From positions 26,413,472 through 26,477,471 of the forward strand of contig CM119265.1 of the NCBI GenBank assembly GCA_051294375.1: a stretch of 64,000 bases of DNA. Reading direction: 5' to 3'. This stretch comes from Paraspadella gotoi. Taxonomy: Eukaryota > Animalia > Chaetognatha. Made by a program: the position numbers and the translations under genes. The notes beneath the pieces were generated by a model. The model had not been told where the DNA came from. It was given only the letters and a program-made list of their open reading frames with translations, and ran no database searches. This document shows, one piece after another, positions 8,408 through 64,000 of the stretch (position 1 is its first letter; each line of letters begins with the position of its first letter).

Positions 8408-8476
<69 letters not shown>

Positions 8477-9700: not shown

Positions 9701-9737
<37 letters not shown>

Positions 9738-9758
9738 GATAGAAAGAGAGTAGAGAGT

Positions 9759-9805
<47 letters not shown>

Positions 9806-12224: not shown

Positions 12225-12362
12225 GCTTGCAGGGACCTGCTATGTCATTATCTTGTAAGAGTGATGGAGGCCTTAAACCACCAAAGCCTGTCCAAAGTCA
12301 GGGGCAAGATAGCTTATTTATTAAATGAATGGATAATTTTTATATTGGTTGTACCAATTTCA
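12225..12362. repeat. ~130-bp dispersed repeat family
   Basis: Core gacctgctatgtcattatcttgtaagagtgatgg...ggcaagatagcttatttattaaatgaatggataatttttatattggttgtac. Also at ~18940, ~24985 and ~44400; in reverse orientation at ~36778-36900 and ~53134-53255; degenerate at ~9250 and ~13765. Confidence 0.75.
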
Positions 12363-14170: not shown

Positions 14171-14203
<33 letters not shown>

Positions 14204-14215
14204 AAGAAGAGAGAG

Positions 14216-14294
<79 letters not shown>

Positions 14295-15122: not shown

Positions 15123-17082
15123 GAGACGTTTTGAGTCTCCACGCTTTGCGGACCTTTTTTGAGGGTGTCGCCCGTCGAGAAAGGGGTTTTGACGAGAGTC
15201 TTGACTATTTCTTCAGAAATTGATTAAGACGAGTTCAAAAAGGGTAAAACGTGTATTTCTTCGTGACAAAAGACGTATCAGACGTAACAAAAGTCGTGGC
15301 AAAAGTCAAAGACTCGTAAAAACAACGTTTAATAACGAGCGACGCTTCTTCAAGTGGTTCACGTAACATTGAAAAGCCGGTCACAAAAATTGATAAAGAA
15401 ACATTCGAATATCGGCCAAAATCACGAAAGAGGGAGAGAGAGAAATGACCACTAAAAAGTTCACGGATCACGAGGGCGAATTTCTCTTCACCCCCATCGT
15501 TAAAAATCAAACATTTTTACACTAACAATAGAATACGCCGAGTGTGGACTAAAAACCTTCATCATATACTAAGTTAACAAGTTATAGTTTAAATCAAATT
15601 TCATGAAATAATAACAGAAATGATGTGTGATATCTATTAGAAAACTAGGACAGATAGTAATCTAACCTTGTGTTGTATAGATGCTCCCTCTATTTCCAGA
15701 AGACAACACTGACTTCCCCTTCCAAATTGTATTATTAGATAAAAAAACATTTTTAAGAAAGAAAGCAATATATATTTGATTAAATAATAAGATTAAATAC
15801 TAAATCCTTCATAAAATATAAAATAAAAAATAGTGAAACAAGTAATTTGCAATTTTTCATAGTAAAAAGGAAATGCACTGAGGATACGTATTATCAATAA
15901 ACTCGTTTTCCAATTAAGACAATCATCTTCTCTTCTTTGGGCTTCACTTAAGACCGGCGGGTAAAAGGTAGACTGTTTCATGTTCATCATCACCGGCATC
16001 GATGTTCTTGTTGTCTTCGTCGTATTTCTTGATCTATCATGAAGCGTGGAATGATGGAAACCGTCGCAGACAGCGCAGCGACGTTTGAGAGTGGCAGTAC
16101 CGGGTCACGTGACCCGGTTCCAAGCAACGAAAACACAATCGGTTTTTGGAAGACAAACATTTTCTTTATGTCGGCATCCATCGAGCGATAGAGATTGCAC
16201 TGAGAAACCGAGTGATTTCTTTCCGCAGAACCGACAAGTCACTGCCTTCGTGAAAGGCGGCGCTGAACTTCCAGATAGGTCGAATTCGGCATCGACGTCG
16301 GTCTTTTTCTCCGCCGAGGAGAAAGGCCGATTCTTCGGAGATGGAGTGGCTAAGGCGGGGAACGAGTCCCCCATCATTCAAAGACGGAGGGCCGAATGTT
16401 TTGGCGAAGAGGGAGAGGAAACTGGTGTCGATTCAAGTTTGAAGTTCTTCTCCGCGATTTTTCGAGTTTCATGATGTTCGAGTCTTAGAGCGTCAAACTC
16501 TTTCTTTAAGAGATTCTTTCATCGTTTCGAGTCGTGCTTCCAGTAAGTTCTTAAAACAATCGTAGATCTTCAGGAGTTTATCATTGACGACAAGGAATAT
16601 ATCTTGTACTAGATCGCGATGTTCTTCTGCGACGGTTGAAAAATCAAACATTTTTCAGTCGGAGTGTTTAATTGCGCGATTAATCCAATTAGCAATTAGT
16701 TGTTTTTTACTGTAGAGACGTTTTGAGTCTCCACGCTTTGCGGACCTTTTTGAGGGTGTCCGCCCGTCGAGAAAGGGGTTTGACGAGAGTCTTGACTATT
16801 TCTTCAGAAATTGATAAGACGAGTTCAAAAAAGCGGTAAAAACGTGTATTTCTTCGTGACAAAAGACGTATCAGACGTAACAAAAGTCGTGGCAAAAGTC
16901 AAAGACTCGTAAAAACAACGTTAATAACGAGCGACGTTTCTTCAAGTGGTTTCACGTACAACTGAAAAGCCGGTCACAAAAATTGATAAAGAAACATTCG
17001 AATATCGGCCAAAATCACGAAAAGAGGAGAGAGAGAAATGACCACTAAAAAGTTCACGGATCACGAGGCGAATTTCTCTTCA
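15123..17082 (-). mobile_element. Non-autonomous gag-only BEL/Pao LTR retroelement (~1.96 kb)
   Basis: Near-identical ~370-bp LTRs at ~15123-15490 and 16711-17082; on the minus strand the right copy reads TGAAGAG...TCTACA. A PPT-like gatggggg abuts the 3' LTR. The empty site (aataagagagtcattaag) is visible in array copy A at ~10753, and with a 1-nt indel in copy C at ~22505. Confidence 0.88.
15793..16651 (-). pseudogene. BEL/Pao-type Gag with three Cys/His knuckles (frameshifted as assembled)
   Basis: ATG at 16651 begins MFDFSTVAEEHRDLVQDIFLVVNDKLLKIYDCFKNLLEARLE (helical). Across single-base shifts it continues CRFCGKNHSVSQC, LCFRCLEPGHVTRYC and CAVCDGFHHSTLH, the BEL/Pao triple-knuckle pattern. 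No protease, RT or integrase. Confidence 0.8.
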
Positions 17083-19997
17083 AGAGTCATTAAGTCGAAC
17101 GGCGTTTTAATTGATTATGTATAAAGAAAAATAATGTTAATTATATCTATAATTAATTAATTTATATCTTAATTGTACTGGGTTGCGAATTCTTTTAAAT
17201 AAAAAAGTTGGTAAAATTGAATAATTTAAGGAAAATATGAAGGAAAATGAGCGACATTAAAGGTGAAGTAAAAAATTACGCTTGTATTGAATGAAGATTG
17301 TGAATTGTGAAAACAAATTTTCAGTCTGTTTTTCTTCCTATAGACAGATCGGACGACCGTCTGGAAATCGCTTGGTCCCTTTACGGAATGAACCTGAGAA
17401 AAATTGGAAAATAGAGGAAGAAATCGAGTTAGAATTTGAGAAAGAAAAAAAAAAGAAAGAAAAAAAGAAAATAAAAAATGGATGAAGTCCAAACTGAAAT
17501 TCGGTCGATCGATTTCAACTCTGTGGAAAGAAGGAGATGAAGGAATTGAGAAAAGGAAAGAAAGGAGGAAAGGAAAGAAAGGAGGAAAGGAAAGAAAGGA
17601 GGAAAGGGGAAGCGATAAAGGGAGAAAAGGTAAGAAAGGAGGAAAAAGGAAAACTAAGGACAGGTGAAAAAAACAGGGAAGAGAGGAAAGGAGAAAAGAA
17701 AAAAGCTGAAAGGAGGAAAGAAAAAGGAGGAATGCAAAAAAGAAAATAAGTAACAAGGAAATTAGGAAAGTAGGAAAGGTAAAGAAAGGATATTTGTATT
17801 CTGAAAAGAAAGAGAGTAAAAAGGAAAAAAAGAGAAAGATCAAAGGAGGGAAGAAACTCTACGTCCTTTTGAAGAATTGATAGAAATTCTACGTTTTCTA
17901 GATTCCTAAATGTTGATTGTAATTTACTCAAAAAATTCGTCAACAGATTCCGTCTGTATTGATAAATTAAGAAAACTCTTTATAGTTTAACATTATAAAA
18001 TACATACCTCTATTCTAAATTGCTTCCTGAAGATCAAATATTTTCCAAAGACTCCATTTTTTTTCTTCTTCTATCATTTCTGAGAATTCCCGATTCTCCC
18101 CTTGAACTTTTTCGATCGACACGACGACGTCGACGACAAAAGAGCAGCGGGAAAATTGGTTTTTCGGCCGACCGACATCTGGCGGGCGAACGAAGAAGCT
18201 CGCAGCCTCGTTATGGCTACGACGACGCGCCTCTGAATAGCAGCATAGCCGTCGCCCCGTAATTGAATCGTACTAGCTGAGGACATGGAGATTATGAAAA
18301 TGGTAATGGTAATGGTAATTGAGACTGCAAGTGATGGCAAAAATACAACCAGCAAGTGAGAATGACATTATATGAAGAAAATAGAGCACTATTTTCCCTA
18401 AGCGCCCGATTCCTTTTCCTAATCCATTAACTTTATTTTAAGCCAAATAATTAACCTTAATGATTTACCAAATATTTAAAATAATCTTAATCTATAATCC
18501 CTAACCCTAATATCTAACCCTAACCTAATCCCTAACCCTACTATCTAATTTTAACCTAATCTCTAACCCAAATCATTATTTTCACCTTAAATACCTAACC
18601 CTTATGCTCAAAAACTCTAAAACCGAATTTTGCAAGACGAATTTCAATAATCCTAATCTTTAAACCAAATCTCTAACTTAATCCAAATACCATATCCCAA
18701 AACCCATAAATCTAATATTGTACTCCAATTTCATAAAATTCAGCTCCTTGTATTATTTGAATGCTATAGTGCGGAGTAGCAATAAGTATTCCCCGATCTA
18801 AGCTATACTTATGGGAGTGGTCTTTTCATACAATTGAAACATTCTGAAATATTTTCCACTTCATTGATAGGAGAAAGCAGGTAACTCTGGAGTGAATAAA
18901 CTAGACTGTGAAAGAGTCTTGATTGAAAGCTTTGCAGGGACCTGCTATGTCATTATCTTGTTAAGAGTGGATTGGAGGCTTAAACACCAAAAAGCCCTGT
19001 CCCAAAAGTCAGGGGCAAGATAGCTTCATTTATTAAATGAATGGATAATTTTTAATATTGGTTTGTACCCAATTTCATAAAAATTAAAAACTTGATTATT
19101 TCTGATTTAAACGGAATAAGACACTTTTGGAAAATATGAACTCAAATGATCTATGAAAGTGAATGAAAATCATTTTCCTTCTAGTAAAACAAAGGAAAAA
19201 ATTTTTTTTATGAAATAATAGTATAATTATATGTAATTTATAGAGATTATTGAGAAACTACGAACCTTAAATTGCGTCGTCATTGACCAGAACTAGCGCA
19301 CCCTCCGTTATCAATACGTCACAAACTCGCATTACTTATGAAAGAGTAATAAAAAACCGTAGCTTTGAAGTCAATGAGTCGGCGCCTCGTACGCGGAGAC
19401 GAACCGGAACTCGTAATGACGAGTAAAAAGAAATAAAAACTCTTGCCTCATTTAGAATCTATGAGAGAAAAAAAGTCGACGGCGCACTGTCGTTGGATCG
19501 AGGGGGTAGAGGATAGTGAGTGGAATAGAGAGAGAATAGAGAGAGGATAGAGAGAGGATAGAGAGAGGATAGAGAGGTTATAAAAGTTAGGGAGGACAGA
19601 AAGAAGATAGAGAAAACAGACGAACGGACGGACAGACAGAGAGAAATCTATGCTTTTTACATTATTTTATCAAAATTCGAAATGATACTGATATTTAAGG
19701 GATTTACGGACAAAATTGATGGGTGAGACCGACTGACCGACAAAGTGAATTATGGAGCCGAAATCTGTTATACGAAGATCTCACTCACTTTCCTGGACAA
19801 AATTACAATATTTTCATTTATAAGGTATTTTATCAATTAGGTATCAATAAGGTTTTTAATGAAATGATATAGTATTTTAAAAAAAGTCCTCTTATTACTC
19901 AAGTTACTGTAAATCTTTGAAAATAAATATAAAACGTAAAATTAAGAAAAATGGTTTTTATGCTTTTGTGACACAGGTCTCGAAACGCAGATACTAA

Positions 19998-20034
<37 letters not shown>

Positions 20035-23000
20035 AGAGGAGAGAGAGAGAACCGAGAGAGAGAGGCAAGCTTTCCTTTCTTTTGTGTTCCCCGGAAATTT
20101 TTCTAAAAGCTTTTTTTTTCCAACGACACAAAACGAACGTAACTATTTTTATTTTTAGCCGAGAAAAAGAGGAAAAAAAAATCTGAAAATTGTCGCTCGT
20201 AAAAAGTACAAAAGACCAATTTATTTAAATAGAAAAATAAAAAGTTGAAAAATTATGAGAATTTCGGAAGCAAGCACCAAAGCAAAAAAATAATCTAAAG
20301 CTAAAAAGGACAAAGCAAAGAATTCGAAAGCAAGACCAAGAAAGAAAGAAAGAAAGAAAAAAAAATTCAGAAGAAAGTATGAAGATATTCTTTATTCGAA
20401 AAAGACAAGTTTTTGTTATTTTCCAAAAAAATTTAAGTTATTTTGATAAGATGAGTGCACGGCTATGTCATACACATTTACGTTCTCTACAACGCTTCTT
20501 ATGCAATTCACACGCGCCCGCCAGGAAAACAAGAATCGTGCACCCACACCCAATTTCGGCACCCAATCTGGGCCATCAGTTAGTGCGGGGAAGAAGAAAA
20601 CGATTCCAAACGATCAACTAACGAAACTCCGGGTGGGGGGAAAAAATACAAAAACTTTCGTCAAAAAAGGTTTTTTTAAGCAAAATTAAACTGGAGCTTG
20701 TAATTAGCAAAGGGAAATGTCGTCGGTCGTCGTTTGTGTTCAGACAGCAAACATTATTTCATTCTTGATTTTGTGTTCATCACAGCAGAGACAATTTTAT
20801 TTTTCTTGGTCTTTTTAATTTTTTTTCTTTCACTGAATACTAACGTTATACCATTTTATTATGACAGAAATGCCATTTGCTCTGGAAAGTTAAAAAAAAC
20901 CCTATAATTGACTTTTGGAGAAAGATCTTTGAAGTAAAAGTTTTGTAGTATCTTGCAGAGGGAAATAATTACTATACTTAAACCACCATGTAGTCAAAGC
21001 ATATGGAGCTTATTTATGAATTGAATTGAAATAAATTTTATACCTTTTTGTACCTTATTTCATTGGGCGAATTGATTGGGTTCAGACATGGCTTCAGACA
21101 TGGCTTCCGACATGGCTTTCCGTTGTTGTTTCAAACTCTGCCCTCTTCTCGCTGATGTAATGTTAGTTATTCATTTTACTTCGTCAAACGTCATCGTTGT
21201 TACCTATGAGTCGTCGGTCCGTTGCCAAAAAAAATCCAGGAAAGGATATCCATCGAAAGTGGAAAATTTAGACGGGAAAATCATTTGGGAGACGACCAGA
21301 GACAGAAAGAGAGAGAAAGAGAGTAGAGAGAGAAAGACAGAGAGAGAGACGATGGAAAGAGCGAGGAGAAGAAGAGAGAGAGAGGAGAAAAAGATGGAGA
21401 GAGAGAAGAGAGAGAGACAAGAGAGAGCGCGACGGAAGAGAGCATCTGCAGAGGTAGAGAGCAGAGACATGAGAGAGAGAGAAGGGAAAAGAGAAGAGAG
21501 AGTAGAGACGAGAGAAGAGATCGAGAGAGAGAAGAGAGACGAGAGAGAGAAAAAGAGAGAAGATGAGAGAGAGAGAGAGCGAGAGAGAGAGAGAGGAAAG
21601 AGAGAGAAGAAGAGATGAGAGAGAGAGGAGGAGAGAGAGAGAGAAAGACTCGGAAAAATTATGACCGGAAATTCACTGTGGGAATTTTCGCGGTTGAGAG
21701 ACCGCCAACGATTGTGGTGGGAATTCGGTTTCGAGTGGGGGCGGCTGAATGTGGGGTCGGAGGGGGGAATGTGGGGTGAGGGGGGTGGAGGAAGAGGAAA
21801 GCGGACGAGTCGTGGACACCGACTCACGAAAATTGTAGAGTTTGGAAAAAACGAAAAAAGCGAATGGAAAAACAATGGAATTTTCTCGGGGACGATAGGA
21901 CTTGGTTGTCAATACGGACAAATTGACGATAAAAAAAATGTTTTATTTAAGCAACGGAATTTCTTTTTTTAAAAAAGGCCTTGAAAATGAGTAATTTTTT
22001 AGTGTTTTTATACAAAAGCAACGTCCGATTAACGGTATCGTCCTGGAGAGATTGTCTACAAAGAAGTACCACAGGTTTGTGAGGTCCGGTCCTCGGACGC
22101 AAATGCCAGGACCAAAATCGGGACTTACTCTCGAAGCCGGGCCAGGAATGTTTCTCATTCGCCATATGTCCATTTCCTGCGATGTTAGGATACAAAGAAA
22201 TTTATCTAATAATAAATCCACTTTGATGTTATTGAAATCCGACGTCGACTTACAAAATTTAACATAAATTTTAAAAAATTCGACAGAGGTTGTTCTTTTG
22301 TTTCGATCGAATGTGCCCAGCGTTCTAAAAGATGGAATTGGCAGTCGTTGACATTTAAACCGACGGACGTTAGATTCTGAGTTGGTCAACGTGCGGGTAA
22401 CTCCTCAAGATGAAGTTGATTGGACGCCTTCCCATTCGTACCCAACTCTACCGCGAAGGCTAATTAACGGGAGAGCCAAACCCTCCGAGGTTAGAAGACT
22501 TTTTAATAAGAGAGTCATTTAAAGTCGATCGGTTTTAACTGATTATGTATAAAGTAAAAATAATGTAATGATATTATCTATAAATTAATTAATTTGTTAT
22601 ATCTTAATTGTACTGGGTTGCGAAAAATTCTTTTAAGTAAAAGAGTTGGTAAAATTGGAATAATTTAAGGAAAAGTAAAGGAAAATGCAGCGACATTAAA
22701 GAAGGTTGGAGTAAAAAAATTCACGCTTTGTATTGAATGAAGATTGTGAATTGTTGGAAAAAAAAATTTTCAGTCGTTTTTTCTCCACTATAGACAAACG
22801 GACCGACCGTCTGGGAAATCGCTGTCCCTTTACGGACAGAACCTGAGAAAGAAAAAATTGGAAAATAGAGGAAGCAAATCGAGTTAGAATTTGAGAAAGA
22901 AAAAAAAAGAAAGAAAAAAAAAGAAATGATAAAAAAAATGGAATGAAGTCCAAACTGAAATTCGGTCGATCGATTTCAACTCTGTGTGGCAAAGAAGGAT

Positions 23001-23981
23001 GATGAAGGAATTGAGAAAAGAAAGACAAGGAGGAAAGGAAAAGAAAGGAGGAAAGGAAGAAAGAGGAAAGTGGGAAGCGCGATAAAGGGAGAAACGGTAA
23101 GAAACGGAGGAAAAAGGAAAACTAAGGGACAGGTGTGAAAAAAAACAGGGAAAGAGAAAGGAGAAAAGAAAAAAGCTGAAAGGAGGAAAGAAAAAGGAGG
23201 AATGCAAAAAAGAAAATAAAGTAACAGGAAATTAGGAAAGTAGGCAAAGGTAAAGAAGGATATTTGTATTCTGAAAAGAAAGAGATTAAAAAGCGAAAAA
23301 AAAAGAGGAAGATCAAAGGACGGGAAGAAACTCTATCCTTTTGAAGAATGATAGAAATTCTACGTTTTTCTAGATTCCTAAATGTTGATTGTAATTTACT
23401 CAAAAAATTCGTCAACAGATTCCGTTGTATATAAATTAAGAAAACTCTTTTATAGTTGAACATTATAAAATACATACCTACTATGTTCTAAATTTGCCTT
23501 CCTGAATGATCAATATTTTCCAAAGACTCCATTTTTTTTCTTCTTCTATCATTTCTGAAGAATCCGTTTTCCCTTGAACTTTTTCGATACGACACGACGA
23601 CGTCGACGAACAAAAGAGCAGCGGGAAAAATGGTTTTCGCACCGACATTTGGCGGACGCGAACGAAGAAGTCTCGCAGCCTCGTTATGGCTACGACGACC
23701 GCGCCTCTGAATAGCAGCATAGCCGTCGCCCCGTAACTTGAATCTACTAGTGCAGGACATGGAGATTATGAAAAATGGTAATGGTAATGCGTAAATGAGA
23801 CTGCAAAGTGATGGCAAGAATACACCAGAAGTGAGAATGACATTATAATGAAGAAAATAGGAGCACTATTTTCCCCTAAGTTCGCCCGATTCCTTTTCCT
23901 AATCCATTACTTTATTTTAAGCCAAATAATTAACCGTTAATGATGTTACCAAATATTAAAATAATTCTAATCTATAATCCC

Positions 23982-24567
23982 TGTTAAATAGTTTATAAAA
24001 ATATTTAATTAGTTTCGAAATTAATTTCGGTTTTATATGGTAAATCCAATAACGTTACTAGCTTAAATTCTCAACTCGTCCTCTATTCTATGATTTCATT
24101 TGGTTAATATTAGTTCTTAAATCTGATTGGACGAGTACCTTTCTGATCCAATTATTGGTAGTATTCTCAAAAGTCGAAAGTCGTTTTTAATTGGTCTATT
24201 TAAAATTTAAAGAAGATAGAAAAGGCAAGTAGTGTTAAACTTTAGGAGATTGCCCAGAAACATTAGGTAACATGATGAAATATTTGTAACTTTTTGAATG
24301 AATTCTAATCATTTGAAATTATTATTTTGTACAGCTTTGAGCTCTCGATTGAGCTCTCTCTCTATCGTATAGCTCGGCCTCTTCTCTCTCTATAACTCAC
24401 TCTTGTTGCTCTGCTCTGATTATTTTTATTAAAATCTTTCGTGATTTTGGATTGATTCTTATTTTTGAGAGTGAAATGGGCTTTCGCCCAGTGCAAATCA
24501 TACAAGGTACAAATTAGCGTTAAGAGCTAAGTGCCTCAAACAATGTTTTTTAAATACAAACTCCACA
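23982..24567. mobile_element. Solo LTR (586 bp) with 5-bp TSD ATCCC
   Basis: TGTTAAAT...CTCCACA termini; ATCCC at 23977-23981 and 24568-24572; internal CCAAT and ATTAAA motifs. The empty site is seen in copy B at ~18497. Confidence 0.88.
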
Positions 24568-26249
24568 ATCCCTAACCCTAATATCTAACCCTAAACTAAT
24601 CCCTAACCTAATATCTAATTTTAACCTAATCTCTAACCAAATTCATTAATTCTTCACTTAAAATACTAACCTTAGTGCTCAAAACTCTAAAACCGAATTG
24701 CTAAGACACGAATTCATAATCCTAATCTTTAACCAAATCTCTAAACTGATCCAAAACCATATCCCAAACCCATATCTAATATTGTACCCAATTTCATAAA
24801 TTCAGCTCTTGTATTTGATGCTAGTGCGGAGTACAATAAAGTATTCTCCGATCTAATACTTAAGGTGGTTCTTTTCATACAAATTGAAACAATTCTTTGA
24901 AATATTTTCACTTCATTGATAGGGAAGCCGGTACTCTGGAGTGAATAAACTAGACTGGACAAGAGTCATTGATTGAAAGCTTGCAGGACCTGCATGTTCA
25001 TTATCTTGTAAGAGATGATTGGAGCCTTAAACCACCAGAAGCCTGTCCAAAAGTCGAGGGGCAAGATAGCTTATTATTAAATGAATGGATAATTTTTATA
25101 TTGGTTGTACCAATTGATTAAAAATTAAAAACTTGATTATTTCTGAATTTAAACGGAAATTAGGGCACTTTTGGAAAATATGACTCTAAATAATCTATCG
25201 AGTAATGAAATCATTTCCTTCTAGTATAACAAAGGAAAAAAATTTTTTCTTATGAATATATAGTATATTATTTAATTTTATAGAGATGTATTGAAACTAC
25301 GCTAACCTTTAATATTGCCTCGTCATTGTACCAGAACTAGGCGCACCCCCGTACAATACGTCACAAAACTCGCTTACTATGAAGAGTAATAAAAACCGTT
25401 AAGCTTTGAAGTCAATTGAGTCGGCGCCTCGTACCGGAGACGAACCGGAAACCTCGTAATGACGGTAAAAAAGAAATAAAAACTCTTGCCTCATTAGAAT
25501 CTATGAGAGAAAAAAAGTCGACGGCGCATCTAGTCGTTTGGATCGAGGGGTTAGAGGATAGTGAGTGGATTAGAGAGAGAATAGAGAGAGGTGGCATAGA
25601 GAGAGGATAGAGAGAGGATAGAGAGTTATAAAAGTTTAGGGAGGACAAAGAAATAGAAAACAGACAGAACGACGGACAGCAGAGAGAAACTATGCTTTTT
25701 ACATTATTTTATCAAAAATTCGAAATGATATGATATTTAAGGGATTTACGACACAAAATTGATGAGGTGATACCGACTGACCGACAAAGTGGATTATGGA
25801 GCCGAAATCTTTTATACGAAAGATCTCACTCACTTTCCTAGGACCAAAATTTACAATATTTTACATTTATAAGGTAATTTATCAATTAGGTATCAATAAG
25901 GTTTTTTAATGAAGATGATTATAGCTATTTAATAAAAAGTCTCTTATTACTTCAATTACTGAAATCTTTGAAAATAAATTAATCAAAACGTAAAATAGGA
26001 AAAAGTGGTTTTTATGCTTTGTGACACAGGTCTCGAAACGCAGATACTAATTTTCTCTCTCTCTCTTCTCTCTCTCTCTCTGCTCTCTCTCTCCTCTCTC
26101 TCCCTCTCTCTCTCTCTCTTATGTCAACGAGGTGTCACCCTTCTCTCCGTCTGCTCCTAACTAATTTTTAACTAATTAAATTCGCGGTCGAAACAAGTCT
26201 TGAGTAACAATGTTCGTGTTCAAGTTCCAAGTATGTATCCTTCAGAATC

Positions 26250-28681: not shown

Positions 28682-30431
28682 ATGGAGCCGAATATAATCA
28701 AAATAAATGAAAAAGAAAATGAGATAATTGAAGAAGTCGATGATCCAACGGACTTACCCATCCCAATTTTTCACGGTTTCCCTTACCCGCATGTCGTAAG
28801 GGAAAGTCAGGACAAGTTTGATGCTTTTCGAAAACAAGTAAGCAAAACCAAAAAAAAAAAGAAACTCTGAACTAACATATTAAAATAAAGAAGGCTACAA
28901 AATAAGCCTTATCAACTACTGTATGCACTATCTCGACCGTAAGTTCCGGGTTCGAATCCGTTTGTCTCCCGATTCATTGACAAAGTGCAGCAGTAGCAAG
29001 CGCCAACGGGTAAGATGGCCCACGGGTGGGGTGCTATTTCAATGAATATTATTCATCTACTCAGCAGTCGGCAATAAGGCATTACTTTTTGCAATTTCGC
29101 TGGCGGTTACCAGAATCGAATGTCTTGATGTTTGTAAATCGTAATTATTCTTTCTCAGACTTCGAAATTTTTTTTTTCCAGGTGAGGTTCAAAGATGGGG
29201 ACGTCATTCAATTGTCCTACCCGAAAGCGGGCAACCATTGGGCCAATGGGTTTCTCGGAATGCTTATGACGAAATCTAAGGAAATAACTAAGGTTTCTCT
29301 CTTACCAAATTAATCAAATTATTAGTTACGAATTCGTCTTAATATTTTTTTTTCTTAACAAAGGTTCATGGGGGACTCATGGAAATCTATTGCGATTCCG
29401 CAATGATCGAGACTTGTCCGCATCCAAGAATTTTTTTCACTCATATCCCGTATCATCAGTTACCCCGGGACATAATTGAAAATAAGAAAATCAAAATATT
29501 ACTGCTCATCAGGTAAGGTAATACAATGAACATGTTTGATTGTGTTAATATTACAAAATCGTTCAGAAACCCGAAGGATACAGCGGTGTCTTATTATCAC
29601 TTTATGAAGAAATGGATCTGTCGCGGTAAAATATTTACAGGTAGAGAGGTATTTGTACATCGTAGTCGTGAACAAGAATATATATATATATAATTATATT
29701 GTATATACATTTTCTTTTACAAGGAAACTTAACTTCTTTCGTTAAGCCGTGGATTGAGGGTCGTTTAAGCTATGGCTCGTGGTACGTGCATACACCATCT
29801 TTAAATTTTCTTTTAATTTACAGTCTTATACTTAATAAAAGTATTCTTGTTGTTTATTGATAGGTCGTTATTATTACCGCTCAATCTCGAAAAATATTTG
29901 TTGGGCTGGAAAACGTCACGTGGCTTCAATACGAGAAAATGAAGTCAAATTTCGTTCCAAATTTGAGACACATTGCGAAATTTTTGAACGTCGATGTTTC
30001 CGATGACTTTCTCAAGTACGAACATTTATAGTTAATATAAATCAAACAATATGAAATTATGATATGATATTTACGCTCTCTCGATCCCCAATCGCCCCTA
30101 TTGCACATTGCACATTGCACACCACAGCGAATGACTAACAACCCTTATCGTCCAACTACCCAACCCGCCTCAATGGACCTTAAACCAACCCATACCAAAC
30201 CTTACCCTCCCATACAGGATAATAGAGTCGAAGACATCTCTTCCCGAAATGAGCAAATGGGCGACCGGGCAGATGTCCGCCAACGGGCAGACCGCTTTCT
30301 CCGACTATTTCCGGAAGGGCGTGGTCGGAGACTGGAGGACGCAGATGGAAGAAGACGACGCCAGAAAGATCGACGAGATGCTGGAGGAGCTGAAGCCTCT
30401 TCTCAAAGGCTACGAAGATGTTGATCAATGA
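28682..30431 (+). CDS. Cytosolic PAPS-dependent sulfotransferase (Sulfotransfer_1 family), 7 exons, ~300 aa
   Basis: Exons 28682-28837, 29182-29292, 29364-29512, 29567-29640, 29724-29781, 29864-30015, 30218-30431, all GT-AG. Motifs: 5'-PSB SYPKAGNHW, catalytic His in PRIFFTHIP, 3'-PB IRNPKDTAVSYYHF, YGSW, LQYEKMK, C-terminal YFRKGVVGDW. There is a frame inconsistency at the exon 5/6 junction (see findings). Confidence 0.92.
28930..29040 (+). mobile_element. tRNA-derived SINE-like fragment in sulfotransferase intron 1
   Basis: B-box-like ccgggttcgaatccg at ~28946-28960 followed by a GC-richer body. No full cloverleaf. Confidence 0.45.
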
Positions 30432-33299: not shown

Positions 33300-34573
33300 A
33301 GAGATTTTGAAGAGAAAGAAATTAGTGTGAGATTATTATGAGAAAAAAAAGTTTATTAAAAAATCCAATTTACAATTTTGGGAAGGATCTGAAATAATTT
33401 TCTCCGTTTCTTTTTAGGAAAATTGGGGCTTTTATTGTAATTAAACTGCAAATTTAAAACGATTTAGTTTTGATAAATTAAGTTAAATGCAGAAAATTTT
33501 CTTTTTTTTTTCTATAATATATTTTCACTAAAATTTTCATTTTAGGCCAAAAAAAAAATCTTTAAATCGATTGCATTAAAAGGGTATTTGTTTTCTTTTT
33601 ATTGTCTGGTTTTATTTGCTTACGTTTAAAATTAAAAATTTCAGCTAATCATCGTCGCATTCATGAAATCATTTTCATCTCAAAATCGAAACATGTCGAA
33701 TATTGAGTCGTACAAATTCACCGTCAATAAAAACTGTCTACATTTATTGTGATATAAAATCGAACGGGTTGCGCCAAAAAATTGTTTCCTTCTTCACTTT
33801 TCTTTTGTCAACAAAAAATGTGGTTGTGGGAAATTCAGACGTCGGCGGAAAAACGAAGAGGGACTTCGGCGGCGGAAGAGGAAATAAAATATTTACGAGT
33901 CGAGGGGGTTGTGGGGAAGGATGTGGGGATGTGGGGAAAGATGTCGGGAAGGATTTGGGGATGTGGGGAAGGATTTGGGGAAGGATGTTGAGATGTGGGG
34001 AAAGATGTGGGGAAGGATGTGGTTGAGGAATGTGTGGATAAGTGGGGTGAAGAATGCGAAAGTGGGCAGGAATGTAGTAAAGAATTGGATGTGTTGAGGC
34101 TGGCGTATAATGTGGTGAATAATCTAAGAGTGCAAAAAAATCTGATTTCTGTGAGTCTGTGAGGCTGCGAGGTTGAAGGAAAATGTGTTTAATACTGTTT
34201 ATATAGGTTTGCGGTGTGTCTGATAGTGTCACAGAAAGTGGTTTGTGAAATTTAATTAAAGAAGTTTTTGGGAGACAAGCATTCATATTTTAGTACAAAC
34301 ATTGTGCAAATATAGAAGAAATAAATGTTAAGAAAGTTAAGTATAATGAGATGTATAATGTATAATGTACAATGAGAAAAGAAGTTGGAAGAGATAAAAT
34401 GTGAAAGATTTTGTGTTTTTTTGTCCAAACTTAGAGAAGTAAAAGATACAGGGTAGAAAGAAGAAAAGTCTGTTGGGTCAACTGTAACGGAAATCTGAGT
34501 TGCAGACTTTAAGGAGAGACGAATGAAAGTCAAAACAGTCGGCGACGGGAAATGACAGAGAGAGAGTAGGAAC

Positions 34574-34633
<60 letters not shown>

Positions 34634-35535
34634 ATTAAGACTTTTGACTCCGTGGCTAAGCTCATGGGGAGACCAATAATCGTTGTCGTTGTAGCTGTCA
34701 TAGTGGATGGAGTTGTAACAATATTTATTGCTGTTGTTGTTATGATAAAGGCATAGTTTATCTGGTTTATTCTCCTCCCTTAAAATTATTTACTCATAGT
34801 TTTTTTTTTCGAACAAAAGGAACAACAACTAAATCCAAAAGTACAACAACAACAACATCAATAACAAAAAAAACGAAGATTTTTTTATCGCGACTTCGAT
34901 GTTTCATTTTAATAAGAAAAGAAAAAGAAAAAAAAGGCAAAACAAAATGGCGACGAAGAGTGAAACGCGCGTGCGCAGAACGAATATTCATCTTTGATTT
35001 AATTGCATTTCAAAATTATTCTTTTAGTTGCATAACTTTTCGTTTTATTGTGTAAAACGTCTTAAAAATTTTTTGAATTATTTACTCTGCAAAAAATATT
35101 GAAATTATCGTTAGTTTAAAAAAGAAAGTAATTATTTCCTGCCCGATTTTTTTCTAACTCTCGCAGAAACTGCGTCAAGAACTGTAACCCTGTTTGTAAC
35201 AGTTAAACAGCAAATCAACTGTAAATACAATGAAACGTCTTTTGAGTTATTTTTTCCCTTAAGAACCGAGAGAGAAAAAAAAAGAACATCGACCAAACAA
35301 AAGTTAATTCTTTCGCTGATGATTCCGATGCCCTTGCGCCCGGACGGTCCTTCGGTCTTTATTTCTTTCTTTCTTTTCTTTCTTTCTTTCTTTTCAGTCT
35401 TTAATTTTTTATTTTTTTCATTATTAGTTTACTTATCAGTTTATCTGTTTCTTTCTATCTTTTCATCTATCCTTTTTTCATTTCCCTTCCGTCTTTCCTA
35501 CAAGAGCTCCAATCTCTCTCTCTCGTCTCTCCTCT

Positions 35536-35578
<43 letters not shown>

Positions 35579-36622
35579 CTCTCTCCTCTACTCTCTCATC
35601 TTCTCTTCCACCCTCCCTTCTTCATTCCCGCTCTCTTCTCAGCCCGCTCTCACGAACAGCGACAGGTAATTATCATGCTGGCCAACAGAAAGACAACTGG
35701 GTTTGTACAACGTAATACTCAAAAAAAAAAAAAAATCAATGGTTTATTTTGTATTTTAAGGAGATAAAGTAGAGGCCACTAAACTCATATTGATAGTCTG
35801 AAAAGAATTCGCGAGAAATTAAATGAATAAACAGTAGAGTTTTAAAAGATTAAACATCAAAGACAACAAAGTTGACGATCAATGTATTTATCCTATATCG
35901 AATTTAGTCCTTACAGCACAAAAACCGTTTATTACAGAGGAAATTAAGCTAAATTCCTTTCGATCGATATCAAAAAACGTCTGGAAAATCCTACAGCAAT
36001 AACTGTAATTAAAGCTTTTTGCATAACATGCCAAAATTCCTAGCGCCGCTTCCTTACAAAATTTAGGGAAATTTTGGCGAAATTTTGACTTCTGACTTTT
36101 GGCAGATTTTCTGACTGCAATCCCCCTGATTAATGAAAATGTAGGATAGAGAAGCAGAATGTCCCACGCATCCTCTCCAGAACTCTTTACTTTTTGACAG
36201 CAACAATAGTGAGAGAAATAATAGCATTCCCAACGGGCGCTTCTCTGAACCTTTGGAGAAAGTCATGGTTGCCGAATGTATATCTTTTTAATGGATTGCG
36301 TTGTCATTACAATTTTTCACAAGTGTACCAATTTTCATTCGATTATTTTGAAGAAGAAATAAACCTGTATTTTTATTTTTATTTTAGCTTCAACTTTTAG
36401 AATTTCCCACACTGTCGTTTGTCACGTGATCTCGTCCTTTCGTCCAGCTCACGATGGCATCTCAGCGTGAAGGTCACATGTTCACAATATAACCCGGTGA
36501 CGAGTTCACAATGTTGCCGCTTGAACTTTCCATTCACATCGGCCCCTTTCTGATAACCTCGTCGCGTGACTCTGACGGCGTGAACCTTCGAGACCCGCGC
36601 GCGCACCAAAAACGCGATGCGT

Positions 36623-36682
<60 letters not shown>

Positions 36683-37707
36683 GAGAGAGAGAGTCACCAA
36701 GACCCACGCCCACGTTGAATCTGGATTCGCTACTCGACGTGAGTACCACAACAACTCTTTCATTATTATGTATTTGCTACAACCAATATAAAAATTACCA
36801 ATTCATTTAATAAATAAGCTATCCGACCCTTGACTTTGGACAGGCAATAGTGGGTTAATGCCTTCATCGCTCTCACCAGATAATGACGTAGCATGACCTC
36901 GTTTATGAAATAATGTTTCAAAGAATGTTTTATGTATCTTTTTTCTCCCCCTTTCTCTTTTACAACATGCGCCTCTTCATTTATTACTCCCTCCCCTTCC
37001 TTTACATTCTTCAGGTTTGTTGCTTCACCTTTCCTTATTTCTGTCCCTCCCTTCCTCCTTTCCGACCTCTTGTCCTCCAAACGACTTCTCCTTCCCTCCC
37101 TCTCTTCCTTCCTCCCTCCCTCCCTTTTTCCCTTACTTCTTTCTCTTTTTTCCTCCTTTCCTCCCTCTCGTCCTCCCTCCTTCTTCTCCTCTCTTCCTCC
37201 CTCCTTCCCTTCCACCTTTCATTCCTCTCTCTCTTCCTCCATCCCTCCCTCTTTTCCTCTCTCCCTCTTTCATTCCTTCCCACGCTCGTGACCTTCGATC
37301 GAAGGTGAATCGACTTCCGCCGAAGTCGATAACGACAACAACAACCAGAACTACAACGACAACAACCACAACGACGAAAAGAACGAAAACGACGACGACG
37401 ACGACGACGACGACAACATCAATTACTACAAGGAGGAAAACGATGATTACGAAAACCACAACGACAACCACAATGACGACAACGAAGAAAACGATGTCCA
37501 CATCAATTACAACAACAACAATAATAACGACAATGACGACAACGAAGAAACCAATAATGATGACAACAACGACAACGACAACAACCACAATGATGACAGA
37601 GACAGAAACAATAATAACGACGACGACAACAACATTCCAACATTCACAACAACGACGACAATGATTATGCAACGATCAAAACACTTCCCATCATCCACGG
37701 CTCCCTC
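33300..37707 (+). repeat. Left arm of a ~4.5-kb inverted duplication
   Basis: Collinear reverse complement of ~43523-48180 (e.g. 33690-33900 vs 47530-47770, and 36400-36620 vs 44710-44945). Confidence 0.9.
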
Positions 37708-38051
37708 AAAGAGAGAGAGCTAAAAGCGCAGACTCGTTTTTCAAACGTTTACTGGTTCGCTCGGACGAATATTGCCTTTCGCTTCTCTCCTCTTCCGCCC
37801 TGCGGTAGATTCACCTCTCTCTCCTTTTTAAAACGTAGTGGCGCCGATGTTTATTGTTCAATTCTTATCTCTTTTGATAAAAATGTTAACATATCAATGA
37901 GATGTTACTTCTGCTAAATTCTTGTCGAAATTCAATTGACCGAGAAATTTTTCAATTTCATGCAAAGCGAAAACTGGCAGTTTATCGGAAGAGAGAAGAG
38001 AGAGAAGAGAGAAAAGCGAAGAGAGAGATAGAGAGAGAGAGAAGAGGACGA

Positions 38052-56669: not shown

Positions 56670-57179
56670 CTCTTTATCTCTCTCTCTCTGTATATATCTT
56701 TATATATATATCTTTATCTCTCTCTCTCTCGCTGTTTTGTTTTTCTGCTTCTTTTTTCTCTTCCTTTCCTTATATTCTCCTTCCTATCTTCTTTTATTTT
56801 TCTATAACTCTTTCATTTAATATTTTCCTTATCCTTTTATCTTTTGTCTCTTTTTCTTTCCTCCTTTTTTTTCTCTCCACATTTTATTTTATCTTCCTCT
56901 TCCTCTTCTTCCCTCTTTCTTTTCTTTCCTTTTCCTTCATTTCTTTTCGCTTCTTCCAACTCACGATTCCATCTTCTCTATTTATCCATTTTCTCCCTTT
57001 TTTTCTTTTTTTTTCCCATTTTCTCCATTTTCTCCCTGTTTTCTCCATTTCCATTTCTGCATCCGGTCGAATTTCCGCCCGCATTTTTCTTCTTCCGGTA
57101 AAAGCGTCCGGTTCATTCGGCCATTTTTTTCCTCCGACGGAAAAACGGATTTTCTTTTCTCGATTTCGAGAGCGAATGA

Positions 57180-57376
57180 AATGAGGAGATATGAACTGAG
57201 GGGATATGAACTGAGGGGATATGAACTGAGGGGATATGAACTGAGGGGATATGAAATGAGGAGATATGAACTGAGGGGATATGAACTGAGGGGATATAAA
57301 ATGAGGAGATATGACCTGAGGAGATATGAAATGAAGAGATATAAAATGAGGAGATATGAACTGAGGAGATATGAAG
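57180..57376. repeat. 15-bp minisatellite
   Basis: About 13 copies of atgaactgaggggat / atgaaatgaggagat. Confidence 0.92.
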
Positions 57377-58887: not shown

Positions 58888-59591
58888 TCAGCAAATATTT
58901 TCGTTCATGCATTTGGTTCTCCATTCGGCCATCGTGAAACTTGGACTCATTCTGTGATTCGATCTCACCTTTGGAGAAAAACAATTGTGAAATGAGATCG
59001 ATCGTCGTAGGAGATGATTATTAAATGAGAAGAATTTTTTCAATCTCATTTACATATTGTAGTATTTAACCTAAATGAGTTCATATTCATTTTATGGTTT
59101 AACTGTATTTGTTGAACACATTGGTATTTAGGCACTTCTATATCGTTTTCGAAAAAAACAACATCACTTTCTTATTAAACAACTAATTTAGACAAACTTG
59201 ACTAAAAATTAAGATTTTTTTTATCATTTCGTCAAAATAAATCAATAAAGCAAACTCGTTCCAAATTTCACTCACGTGTCTCAACGCTTCCCCAGTCTCT
59301 CGTCCAATCGTCTTCCCGAATTTGCAAATGATCTCCCCTGGGACGTGACCGCCGTAGCTGCCCGGGGTAATTGCAAGGGTAAGTGCAAAGGTAAGTGCAA
59401 AGGGAAAAATAGGATTTGGTCAAGTCTTTGTGGGTTCGAATGTCAAATTTTTCATGAAGAAAAAAAGGTAATCTCACAACGAGGTTATCACCTCCCAGAA
59501 TCAGTGATCACTATACGACTTATCAAAGTAAGTTACTCCATCGACTTACCCGAATTACTCACCTCCCGAGGCCCAACAGTACCGACCCAGT

Positions 59592-59679
<88 letters not shown>

Positions 59680-61039
59680 CCTCAAACTAACTCGATTCTC
59701 TCTGGCACGAAACTTTTCCGGACGCGGAACTACTTCCTCACTTTTCTTTTCTCTCTTTTTTCCTCTCTTTAACTCTCTTTTCCTCTAAATTTCTCTCTTT
59801 TTATTTCTTTTCTTTTCCCTTCTTCCTTTTTGTTCCTTTCTTTTTTTCGCTCTTTGCTTTTCTTATTTTTTCTTTTCCTCTCTGTTACTTCTTTTTCTTT
59901 TCTTTTCCTTTCCCTCTTCCTTTCTGTTCCTTTCTTTCCCTCTCTTTTCTTATCTTTTCTTATCTTTTTTTCTCATTTTTCTTATGTTACTCTCTTTTCC
60001 TTTTTTATCTTTCTTTCCCTCTCTTTTCTTATCTTTTCCTCTTATTCTTTCTCATTTCCTCTCTTTTACTTTCCTTTCTAATCTTTTCCTCTCTTTATTT
60101 ATTATTTTCTCCATTTTTCTGTCTTTCCATCTATTTTCCTCTCTACTTTTCATTTCTTTCCTTCTTTTCTTTTTTCCTCTCTTTTCTTCTCTTTCTTCTT
60201 TTTCAAATGTTTTTACCTTTTCGCACTTTCTCTCTCTCTCTCGGTTTCTCCAGGGAGAAAAACGCTTTTAGTTTTTGATCATAATAAAGTGGAACTCAAA
60301 AAAGCGAGGAAATAAGGAAAGAATTAAGGGAGGAAAATAAAAGGAAAAAGAAGGTGCTGTGTGGAAAGGAAGGTAAATAAGAAAAATGGGTAAAGAAAAA
60401 AAAATAGTTACATAAAGAAACAAACAAACTGAAATTGATTAGTTAATATTTGAAAGTAAAATATCTTAAATATGCGTATATAGATTTTAATAGTACCTAA
60501 AAAAGAAAACTAATCTTGTTAATATCATAACTATCATAAGTAAAATAGTCTTGTAATTTTTAATAACTTTTTCTAGAAAATAATACAGTCGTCTNNNNNN
60601 NNNNNNNNNNNNNNNNNNNNNNNNNNNNNNNNTGCTTCGATTCCCGATCTCGATGATGGCCGTCGGACAATCGGGCGGACAGTGCGGACGATGCCTGTCC
60701 GTCCGTCCGTACTTTTGTCCCTCCGGCCCGAACTGATAGTGGGCGGCCCAGTGTCCCTCGGAGGTGCCGTCTCTGTACTGGACCCATTTGCAACACGGGT
60801 CGTAGGTTCGATCGACGGCCGATCCGGGTTTCTCCGGTTGGTAGCCGCATTTGACTCTGTCCCGCAAAAATAGGTCAAATTAATATTTACTAATTACTAT
60901 GACCACTACTATTATTAATTATACGTAAAATGTCAATTATCAATAAAGCACTTTTGGATGAATACATATTATGCTCACAAATTATTTAAAGCGGACGTGA
61001 CGAGCTCTCTCTCTCTCAATCTCTCTCTCTTCTCTCCTC

Positions 61040-61079
<40 letters not shown>

Positions 61080-61160
61080 CTCTCTCTTCTCTCATTCTTC
61101 TTTCTCTTTCCCCTAAAGACGAAAAAAAGCGAATTTTCGCCTAAAGAGATGATCTCTCCT

Positions 61161-61239
<79 letters not shown>

Positions 61240-62133
61240 CTCTCTCTTTCTCTCTCCGACTCAACGATGAAAAACGACTTCGATAAAGACGCGTCCTTGG
61301 CGAATCACAACAACAACAACAACAACAAAACGACAACCACCGTCCCTCCCCCCCCCCAACACCGCGTCGTCGCCACCAGAGATGAAGAAGCTAATGTATA
61401 ACCTGACAAGGAAAATGGCCGAAAAATGATGACCGACATAAAATATGTTATTTCCACTTCTCTTTTAAGGCCGCTTTGAGGATTAGGCAACGTCGATGCC
61501 ACGCAATGTACCTTTTTTCGAGGCTGTTTTTTTTGGTTTTGTTTTGTTATGTTTTGGTGTTTGTTTTTGGGCTGGTTTAATAAATATTTACATTTATTCT
61601 ATTTTTTATTTTTTTAAATTTAAATTTTTTAAATTTGTAAATTTTAATTCTTAATTTTTTAATTTTTATTAATTTGTAAATTTTTAATTTTTAAATAATT
61701 AATTTTTAAAATTTTTAACTCTAAAATTGTAATTTTTAATTTTTAATTTTTAAATAATTAATTTTTAAAATTTTTAACTCTAAAATTGTAAGTTTTTTAT
61801 TTTTAATTTTTAAATAATTAATTTTTAAAATTTTTAACTCTAAAATTGTAAGTTTTTTTAATTTTTAAATTTTTATTTTTTAAAATTTTTAATTTTCAAA
61901 ATTTTAAAATTTAATTTTTTTTTAATTTTAAAATTTTTTATTTTTTTAATTTTTTTTATTTTTAGAATTTTTAATTTTTTAATTTTTTTTAATCTTTTAA
62001 TTTTTATAATGAGAACGCTTGTTATCAGAATCGACAAGAATAACGAAGTGGACCAATTCCCACCTGTAATCTTCTCCTTGGCAATAAGGGTCGATGGCTC
62101 CCATTCCTTTCGGGAGGCAGAAACTGCGTCTCT
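58888..62133 (-). CDS. Spliced gene with a FAM166/CIMIP2-like (PYG-type) ciliary/sperm microtubule-inner-protein motif
   Basis: Phase-compatible GT-AG exons 62133-62064, 60856-60713, 59357-59276 and 58968-58888 encode ...RRSFCLPKGMGAIDPYCQGEDYR/VKCGYQPEKPGSAVDRTYDPCCKWVQYRDGTSEGHWAAHYQFGPEGQN/YGGHVPGEIICKFGKTIGRETGEALRH/VRSNHRMSPSFTMAEWRTKCMNENIC*. YGGHVPG...FGKTIG..T resembles the FAM166-type GY.G..P.....FG.TYG..T repeat. Confidence 0.65.
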
Positions 62134-62429
62134 CTGTGAGAATAGGAGAAAAAAATGATCTCTCTCTCTCCCCCTGTCTCCCTCTCTCTCCCTCCTCTCA
62201 CTCTCTTTCTCTCTCTCTCTCCCTTCTCTTTCTCTCTCTCTTTTCTCTCCTCTCTCTCTCTCTCCCCCCCTCTCTCTCTCTCCCCTTCTCTCTCTCCATC
62301 TCTCTTTCTCCTCTTTCTTTCTCTCTCTCTTTTCTCTCTATTCTCTCTTTCTCTCTCTCCTCCCTCTCTCTCTCCCTCTCCCTCTATCTCTCTCTCTCTC
62401 TCTCCCTCTCCCTTCTATATATCTCTCTC

Positions 62430-62480
<51 letters not shown>

Positions 62481-62704
62481 TTTTTTTCTCCTCTCTCTCT
62501 CTCTCCCTCTCCCTCTCTCTCTCCCTCTCTCTCCCACAACCTCTATGATGCCCCTTCTTTCCTAATTGGCGCATTACGTCTTCAGGCAAGAAAATGACGT
62601 TGTAACAGGCGTTCGAAGGTTTGGACGGGCATGCGGGCTGCTGTAAGAGGGACGTTGATGTTGTAAGAGGTGTGAGCGATGTAGTTGGAGAAGTGAGTGA
62701 GAGA

Positions 62705-62852
62705 GGAGAAGAGATAGGAGGTGATAGGGCACAGAGAGAGGAGGTGATAAGGCGTTGTGTTGAGATAGGAGGTGATAGGGGACAGAGAGAGGAGGTGATA
62801 AGGCGTTGTGTTGAGATAGGAGGTGATAGGGCACAGAGAGAGGAGGTGATAA
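62705..62852. repeat. 54-bp tandem repeat (about 2.7 copies)
   Basis: gagataggaggtgatagggcacagagagaggaggtgataaggcgttgtgtt repeated. Confidence 0.85.
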
Positions 62853-63349
62853 AGCGGTCGTTAAGATAAGGACGCTAGTGATTTTATCAGATGGAGAGTA
62901 ATTTTGTGAAAGAGTGAGAATCAAGGAGAAAGAAAGAAAAGAAATAAAAGGGAAGGGAGAGATTTTAAAGACTTTGTCACTAGTTCTATCATTTACGTTA
63001 CAAATACTACTTTTGTTAAAACTTCAAAAGAAAACTTTGTCTTTTTTGAATGCTCAGTGTAATAGCACCAATCTCGTTGACGTCTATCGGTTCAAGTTAT
63101 TCTCAAAATGGTGTCACCAAGCCAAAGCTTGTCCCCCCATTTCTAATCTCATCCCTTTTCTTTCAATTTAATCCTCCCTTCCCCACCCCTTTCCTATTTC
63201 CTCACCCCTTCCCTCACCTTTCTCCCCCCTTCCTTTCCCCTCTCCCTTCCCCACCCACCCCTTCCTCCTTCTCTCCCCCCTTCCCTTCCCCCTTCTTTGC
63301 CCCTTCCTTGCCCCCCCCCCTCCCCCCTTCCCACCCTCAGACTCTCTAC

Positions 63350-64000
63350 CTTCTCTTTTTCTTCCCCCGCCGCAACCAATCTCCGCCCTTTGGTCACAAG
63401 AGTTTTTTCCAGAATCACAGGTCGACGTTTTGTGTCCATCGCCGCAACCCGTCTTGGAAGACTCTTTGCAACAGGAGAGTTTGACAACCTCCTTGCCGCA
63501 ACTTCTTTTGGCAGGCTCCTCTCCGCAACTCGGCTTGACGGCCTCCTTGCAGCACGACAGTTTCGCAACCTCCTTGCCGCAACTTCTTTTGGCAGGCTCC
63601 TCTCCGCAACCCGTCTTGGATGTCTCTTTGCAGCAAGAGAGTTTCACAGCCTCCTTGCCGCAACTTCTTTTGACAGGCTCTTCGCCGCAACTCGGCTTGA
63701 CGGCCTCCTTGCAGCACGACATTTTAACAACCTCCTTGCCGCAGTTTTTCCTGGCGGCATCGTCGCCGCAACCTTTCTTGGCTGCAGCTACACAGCACGA
63801 CAGTTTGGCAAAGTCCTTGCCGCAACCTTGTTGACCGGCGTCCTGACCGCACTGTCTTCTGGCGGCCTCCTTGCAGCACGAAAGTTTCGCCAAGTCTTTG
63901 CCGCAATCTTTTTCTCCGACGTCTCTGCCGCAACCTGAGTTTGCGGTAGCCTTGCAGCATTTTCTCTCTGCGGCCAAAGCTTCGACGTCGGAACGTAGGA
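63350..64000 (-). CDS. Exon encoding a Cys/Lys/Gly-rich repeat domain (CC-x7-C-x8-C-x8), open to the window edge
   Basis: Six full 27-aa units plus a partial seventh, e.g. CCKEAVKPSCGEEPAKRSCGKEVVKLS. The frame is kept despite nucleotide divergence. Donor AAG|GTAGAG at 63350/63349. The frame stays open upstream (LRSDVEALAAERKCC). Confidence 0.75.

What the first reader, a model, noticed from the sequence alone, without database searches (positions are those of the whole stretch)
58888..64000. Possible new ciliary/sperm-tail protein: periodic Cys-rich repeat fused to a FAM166-like microtubule-binding motif
Seen: the Cys-rich exon ends in phase 1 (63350) and the 62133-62064 exon starts in phase 1. 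The chain 63350>62133-62064>60856-60713>59357-59276>58968-58888 is therefore one open frame to a stop, and none of the four small exons is evident as such in the ORF track. Established: GY.G..P...FG.TYG-type (PYG) repeats occur in FAM166/CIMIP2 axonemal inner proteins, and Cys-rich repeats occur in disulfide-crosslinked sperm-tail proteins (ODF1, SMCP, Drosophila Mst84D/Mst87F). Inference: a lineage-specific protein that docks on axonemal microtubules and crosslinks, or binds zinc, through ~30 regularly spaced Cys. I do not recognise this architecture. Alternative: two genes, with the small one starting at MGAIDPYC (~115 aa).
Basis: partly seen in the sequence, partly recalled or inferred. Interest (0 to 1): 0.8.

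Follow-up and report, generated by a model that had tools for sequence, protein, structure and literature searches.

The report
Orphan cysteine-repeat gene beside FAM166-like gene
An animal genome carries a cysteine-repeat exon with no known relatives, likely encoding a disulfide-cross-linked structural protein, and downstream a small exon weakly resembling a ciliary tubulin-binding repeat; they are probably two genes, because the claimed join rests on an error-ridden patch of the assembly and no read shows it.

Summary
The Cys exon has seven 27-aa units, CC-x7-C-x8-C-x8, and no true relative was found. Exon 59357-59276 hits only FAM166B/CIMIP2B in the PDB (6 of 6, best E 0.029) and PF10629 below its cut-off.

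The fusion is not shown. Contigs from two studies match the Cys exon at 95-100% but leave the window at 63388, 38 nt before the claimed donor, with several indels. The window holds unpolished long-read-like patches, so the phase-1 argument is void. Exons 2 and 3 are open in all three frames. Both contigs stop 232-237 nt further on, short of the PYG-like exon (243 nt or more), a weak hint of a nearby 3' end. A strong unclaimed acceptor at 62133 and even intron lengths keep one gene possible.

Odds: two genes 0.55, fused 0.3, other 0.15. The junction was not read, and the N-terminus lies outside the window.

The parts
63388..64000 (-). Cys-repeat coding exon, part matched by public contigs; seven 27-aa units CC-x7-C-x8-C-x8 from 63959; open beyond the window end
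   Evidence: X1 contigs 19 of 22 at 99%+ identity, and one contig runs 383 nt beyond 64000
63350..63387 (-). claimed last 38 nt of the Cys exon and donor; window letters differ by indels from X1 and X2 contigs, so frame and phase here are unreliable
   Evidence: table 7, compared by eye; donor 6 of 9
63171..63349 (-). G-rich purine tract (62% G, 31% A) with two G4-type motifs; intron start or 3' UTR; holds an 8-of-9 donor-like site after 63218
   Evidence: not a degraded Cys repeat
63167..63172 (-). ATTAAA, candidate poly(A) signal of the Cys gene if the transcript runs on without splicing
   Evidence: projected contig ends at 63151 and 63156; background chance 0.059
62064..62133 (-). small exon 2; strong acceptor; holds the Met at which a 115-aa small protein would start
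   Evidence: 18 of 20 pyrimidines, 34 of 1069 YAG sites reach 17; donor 7 of 9 and open in 3 frames; 115 aa
   Evidence: the same score is reached by many other window segments; no hit
59276..59357 (-). small exon 4; one degenerate PYG/CMI2B-like unit
   Evidence: 6 of 6 PDB hits FAM166B/CIMIP2B, E 0.029-1.2; PF10629 11.9-13.2 bits vs cut-off 21.6; donor 8 of 9
58888..58968 (-). candidate last exon with stop; AATAAA at 58806 and 58761 downstream
   Evidence: no independent support

Best explanation
The region likely holds two neighbouring genes: a Cys-repeat exon of seven 27-aa units, likely encoding a structural protein whose evenly spaced cysteines would form disulfide cross-links, and a small multi-exon gene with one weak PYG-like unit that would bind tubulin as CIMIP2/FAM166 proteins do. 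Shown: the repeat, its invariant Cys, Lys-rich basic make-up (16% Lys, net +12, one aromatic residue in 203), the match to public contigs down to 63388, and the weak FAM166B match. Inferred: that the contigs are RNA, that the Cys transcript is about 1.2 kb and ends about 235 nt after 63388, the cross-linking role, and tubulin binding. The apparent fusion would then come from indel errors in the assembly plus exons that are open in every frame.
For: X1 record 1 (364 nt) and X2 record 9 (359 nt) leave the window at 63388 with the same loose end, 237 and 232 nt long. Ends 5 nt apart in two libraries fit a poly(A) or simple-repeat end (inference). Projected without splicing they fall 16 and 11 nt below an ATTAAA, where background is 0.059. 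X2 holds only the 3' part of the exon (share 0.28), which fits 3' bias near an end. The window has duplicated segments with 424 gap openings against 124 mismatches, insertion-biased 373 vs 122. Composition differs: 1 aromatic in 203 aa against 14 in 124 aa.
Against: Contigs cannot show an RNA end, and both runs are only guessed to be RNA. Only 30 letters of the loose end were visible, and by eye they keep the frame open and fit either continuation. The acceptor at 62133 is strong and no comparable one lies between 63340 and 62134; it needs an upstream donor. Introns would be 1216, 1207 and 1355 nt, strikingly even. A depth-4 contig passing 180 nt of G-rich G4-type sequence is not expected (inference). 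The projected ends also land near features in three other models, so one coincidence weighs little. The downstream exons are Cys-rich too (8 of 124). Record 1 shows no lower depth than internal contigs (2479 vs 2413).
Confidence: 0.55

Rival explanations
1. One gene: the Cys exon splices near 63350 (or after 63218) to exon 2, 3 and 4 in at least one isoform. The protein would anchor on axonemal tubulin through a C-terminal PYG-like unit and cross-link or stiffen through the Cys array.
Against: No joint seen; both contigs stop before exon 4 could be reached, at 60719-60733 in this model, where there is no poly(A) signal or simple repeat; phase unreadable; open frames are cheap; no fused relative among 43 hits in 1.84 billion representatives.
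Confidence: 0.3
2. The Cys exon splices to exon 2 or another exon that serves as its last exon (for instance exon 2 read through to a stop at about 62000 and the A-rich tract), with no in-frame isoform reaching the PYG-like exon.
For: The contig ends project to 61926-61940, amid many AATAAA/ATTAAA sites; an open frame runs to 61997.
Against: Signals are so dense in that A/T tract that the fit is near-certain by chance; the exon 2 donor is decent (7 of 9) and phase-compatible with exon 3.
Confidence: 0.1
3. For the Cys protein alone: a long modular metallothionein-like metal store rather than a cross-linker.
For: Lys-rich, almost no aromatic residues, CC pairs; long modular metallothioneins exist (PMC8476144 passages).
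Against: 14.3% Cys, 4 per 27 aa, no CxC, against 20-30% and 8-12 Cys per about 30 aa (PMC13168519 passages); no Pfam metallothionein hit.
Confidence: 0.15

Closest known systems
FAM166/CIMIP2 microtubule inner proteins (PYG repeat; Pfam PF10629 CMI2B-like)
   Same: Exon 4 aligns with the last PYG unit of FAM166B, keeping Tyr, Gly, the following Pro and the FG.T.G part; no other PDB family was hit.
   Different: One unit only, 13.2 bits at best against 21.6; the Pro-Gly before the Tyr is missing in the spliced chain; FAM166A/B carry several units (PMC10973386); no Cys array is mentioned in the passages read.
Cys-rich cross-linking repeat proteins: avian EDCRP and mammalian KRTAPs
   Same: Short tandem units with CC pairs and Lys, central repeat array; convergent origin is common (PMC4423139 passages).
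   Different: EDCRP has 36% Cys and a CCDPCQ core; here 14% Cys, 2.5% Pro, a 9/27 period, and no sequence match. An analogy only.
Sperm-tail Cys-rich proteins ODF1, SMCP, Drosophila Mst84D/Mst87F (recalled; searches gave no paper describing them)
   Same: Periodic Cys in a low-complexity protein.
   Different: Those repeats are Cys-Pro-rich (recalled); this one is Pro-poor. No hit to them. Tissue unknown.
Multimodular metallothioneins (Botryllus BscMT1, Oikopleura MT2)
   Same: Tandem Cys modules, Lys-rich, few aromatics.
   Different: About half the Cys density and no CxC motifs.

Membership tests
FAM166/CIMIP2 (PYG repeat) | PF10629 match at or above the gathering score (21.6 bits) | tested here: not met
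   11.9 bits and 13.2 bits for exon 4 alone, 26 of 67 profile positions; the spliced product was not scanned
FAM166/CIMIP2 (PYG repeat) | best sequence relatives are FAM166/CIMIP2 chains | tested here: met
   6 of 6 PDB hits up to E 10, best E 0.029; weak
FAM166/CIMIP2 (PYG repeat) | conserved Pro, Tyr, Gly signature | tested here: inconclusive
   Tyr, Gly and the downstream Pro align; the residues before Tyr come from exon 3 and lack Pro-Gly
FAM166/CIMIP2 (PYG repeat) | several PYG units (FAM166A, FAM166B, C10ORF82) | tested here: inconclusive
   no second unit detected in exon 3 or its extension; an N gap at 60595-60632 may hide sequence
FAM166/CIMIP2 (PYG repeat) | helix-plus-loop fold on the tubulin lattice; axonemal location | not testable with these tools
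   needs cryo-EM, proteomics or localisation
Metallothionein | 20-30% Cys in CC/CxC/CCC motifs, 8-12 Cys per about 30-aa domain | tested here: not met
   14.3% Cys, 4 per 27 aa, no CxC; criteria from PMC13168519 passages
Metallothionein | few aromatic residues | tested here: met
   1 Phe in 203 aa
Metallothionein | metal-thiolate clusters | not testable with these tools
   needs recombinant protein and mass spectrometry
EDCRP/KRTAP | CCDPCQ-type core and about 36% Cys | tested here: not met
ODF1/SMCP/Mst87F-type sperm-tail proteins | Cys-Pro-rich repeats (recalled) | tested here: not met
   Pro 2.5%; no family hit
ODF1/SMCP/Mst87F-type sperm-tail proteins | spermatid-specific expression | not testable with these tools
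   runs are coded and carry no library or tissue record
   one search covered only 63320-64000; no joint listed; contigs end before exon 4 could be reached; no reads were laid on the small exons

The most novel reading that the evidence does not exclude
One abundant transcript encodes a lineage-specific axonemal protein in which at least seven basic 27-aa Cys units are tethered to the doublet by a C-terminal PYG-like unit. An extended 27-aa unit would span about one 8-nm tubulin dimer, so the array could lay a ladder of cysteines along a protofilament and lock it by disulfides: a microtubule inner protein that is also a cross-linker, a combination not met in the searches run here.
Probability: 0.25. 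Interest if true: 0.6.

Novelty: new member of a known kind. Interest (0 to 1): 0.3.

Why it matters
If two genes: an orphan Cys-repeat protein and a divergent PYG-like gene, both common kinds of lineage-specific novelty, and a caution that phase arguments fail in unpolished long-read patches. If fused: it would join a tubulin-lumen anchor to a disulfide array, and so make testable how invertebrate sperm tails or cilia are chemically stiffened from inside the doublet.

Tried and rejected
No whole genome is held, so the N-terminus and paralogues could not be read. No RNA holder listed on record; X3 and X4 had nothing on the stretch.

Homologue searches. Cys exon: 0 of 4933 candidates, lengths 118-378 aa only. 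Exon 3 among longer proteins: 0 of 1 candidate. The 43 representative hits are period-9/18/27/28 register matches, such as bovine PEG3 and zinc-finger arrays; 42 of 43 lack the CC-x7-C-x8-C-x8-C pattern and one has it twice in an unrelated repeat (names looked up for 10 of 43). ESM Atlas: nothing usable. PDB for the Cys exon: 3 hits, E 0.07 or worse. Metagenome scans: 0 of 126 and 3 of 131, all with in-frame stops and rejected as chance. A search with the sulfotransferase exon to place the taxon failed on length limits, so the phylum is not determined.

AlphaFold2 on three repeat units: pLDDT 42, pTM 0.22; not used for a fold search.

Ideas dropped. The G-rich tract as a degraded Cys repeat: 91 and 232 of 300 controls scored as high. 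Exon 3 running on to the N gap to complete a second PYG unit: GC stays at 0.62, but codon score is at chance (1502 of 2000) and there is no hit. Codon preference as proof of exons: 36 window segments reach the scan threshold, training segments included, and exon 4 itself scores at chance. Earlier findings: none.
Full report
Observation. The chain 63998-63350, 62133-62064, 60856-60713, 59357-59276, 58968-58888 on the minus strand has GT-AG at all four junctions and is open for 341 codons to a stop. The first exon is open beyond the window end. From residue 14 it holds seven 27-aa units with Cys at positions 1, 2, 10 and 19 in each; identity peaks at lags 27 and 54; it is 15.8% Lys, 14.3% Cys, net +12, with one aromatic residue in 203. 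Differences among six units fall mainly at third codon positions (167 vs 93 and 97), as expected of a real coding repeat. TRF sees the same 27/54/81-nt array. The host is an animal-type genome rich in AG microsatellites; the phylum was not determined (one search failed; no genome held).

How much the open chain is worth. Little. Exons 2 and 3 have no stop in any frame and exon 4 is open in two of three. The donors after 63350 and 60713 match 6 of 9 consensus positions, as do 13% of 2633 GT sites (consensus recalled). The small exons themselves look real: GC 0.51-0.60 against 0.25 in two of the three adjacent flanks measured (0.43 in the third), an 18-of-20 pyrimidine acceptor at 62133 and an 8-of-9 donor after 59276. 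That score is permissive: 36 window segments reach the threshold.

Public contigs. Two of four listed runs hold the Cys exon (shares 0.77 and 0.28, two studies; both only guessed to be RNA). On 63320-64000, X1 gave 22 contigs, 19 at 99% or better, main ones at depth 2090-2479; X2 gave 2 at depth 4-6. Depth is a poor measure of expression, but it suggests an abundant transcript. One X1 contig runs 383 nt beyond 64000. One contig of each run leaves the window at 63388 with the same loose end, 237 and 232 nt long; no joint was listed. By eye, the 30 letters shown resemble 63387-63354 but with one base missing from the window and about five extra in it. They keep the frame open and continue the Gly-Cys-Gly pattern. 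So the 38 nt on which the phase-1 claim rests are unreliable. This fits the window at large: near-duplicate segments show far more gaps than mismatches (424 openings vs 124; extra letters 373 vs 122), the mark of unpolished long reads (inference). The only tract with 55% or more G starts at that very place (63151-63390).

Where the loose end goes was not read; no reads were laid on the small exons. Without splicing the ends project to 63151 and 63156, 16 and 11 nt below ATTAAA at 63172-63167 (background 0.059). Through exon 2 read-through they project to 61926-61940 among many signals. Through exons 2 and 3 they project to 60719-60733, near a GC-rich hairpin (no control) but no signal. A donor after 63218 plus exon 2 gives 240 nt. 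Several models thus find some coincidence, and contigs cannot prove an end. Two libraries stopping 5 nt apart is most simply a poly(A) or simple-repeat end, which favours a short Cys transcript of about 1.2 kb (383 + 613 + 237). Against this stand the unclaimed strong acceptor, intron lengths of 1216, 1207 and 1355 nt, and the G4-type tract, more at home in an intron. My weighing: two genes 0.55, fused in at least one isoform 0.3, other 0.15. These are judgements, not computed values.

The PYG-like exon. Its 27 residues hit 6 PDB sequences up to E 10, all FAM166B/CIMIP2B, best E 0.029. PF10629 scores 11.9-13.2 bits against a cut-off of 21.6, ranking second of two and first of two families. PMC10973386 (passages and section 10) defines the PYG unit as a helix and loop touching two tubulins through Tyr and Pro, and reports it fused to kinase/EF-hand or Mn repeats in Chlamydomonas. 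Its supplementary alignments were not read and may bear on the signature. The exon likely works like a PYG unit; it is not filed as a FAM166 member, since the profile cut-off was not met.

The Cys protein. No relative was found. All 43 representative hits are register matches of other repeats by period and Cys pattern. The model was unusable (pLDDT 42). Metallothionein criteria (PMC8476144 and PMC13168519, passages) are not met for Cys density or CxC motifs. The closest working analogy is convergent Cys-repeat cross-linkers such as EDCRP and KRTAPs (PMC4423139, passages). Invariant, evenly spaced Cys in otherwise variable polar units would suit inter-chain disulfides (inference). Whether it is secreted or cytoplasmic depends on up to about 127 unseen N-terminal codons. 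ODF1, SMCP and Mst84D/Mst87F features are recalled; two searches returned 0 and 1 papers (listing only).

Print. Searches (listings only, apart from the four papers above) showed no paper on this repeat or on a Cys-repeat/PYG fusion; the library lacks most subscription journals. Earlier scan findings: none.

Verdict. Both parts are real; the join is unproven and slightly disfavoured. New member of a known kind, interest 0.3. If fused and axonemal (0.25), interest 0.6. One contig read in full would settle it.

Noticed in passing
window 33303-37710 vs 48180-43522; several 1-1.6 kb pairs within 8453-26086: Near-duplicate segments with far more gaps than mismatches (424 openings vs 124 in the largest; insertion-biased), likely the same DNA assembled twice from unpolished long reads. 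Frames and phases in this assembly need read support.
   Followed up: partly
window 30135-30428 +: Last exon of a sulfotransferase (PF00685, E 1.8e-5, above cut-off). Its other exons were not sought.
   Followed up: partly
window about 4650-6040 -: Broken frames that look like a GIY-YIG endonuclease of a Penelope-like retroelement (label recalled, not tested).
   Followed up: no
window 61267-61401 +: A 44-codon ATG-started frame with Asn, Thr and Pro runs on the opposite strand inside the intron between exons 2 and 3; may be chance in simple repeats.
   Followed up: no
window 60745-60660 -: GC-rich stretch across the exon 3 donor folds at -35.6 kcal/mol (no shuffle control); GC stays at 0.62 up to the N gap at 60632.
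   Followed up: partly
   Followed up: partly
window 62711-62856: 51-bp unit, 2.9 copies at 96%, between the Cys exon and exon 2.
   Followed up: no
window about 57176-57375: 15-bp tandem array giving pentapeptide-repeat frames on both strands; probably non-coding.
   Followed up: no
runs X1 and X2: Two runs filed under different coded organisms hold near-identical Cys-exon sequence at depths of about 2400 and 5; contamination, diet or a symbiont/host mix could explain X2.
   Followed up: no
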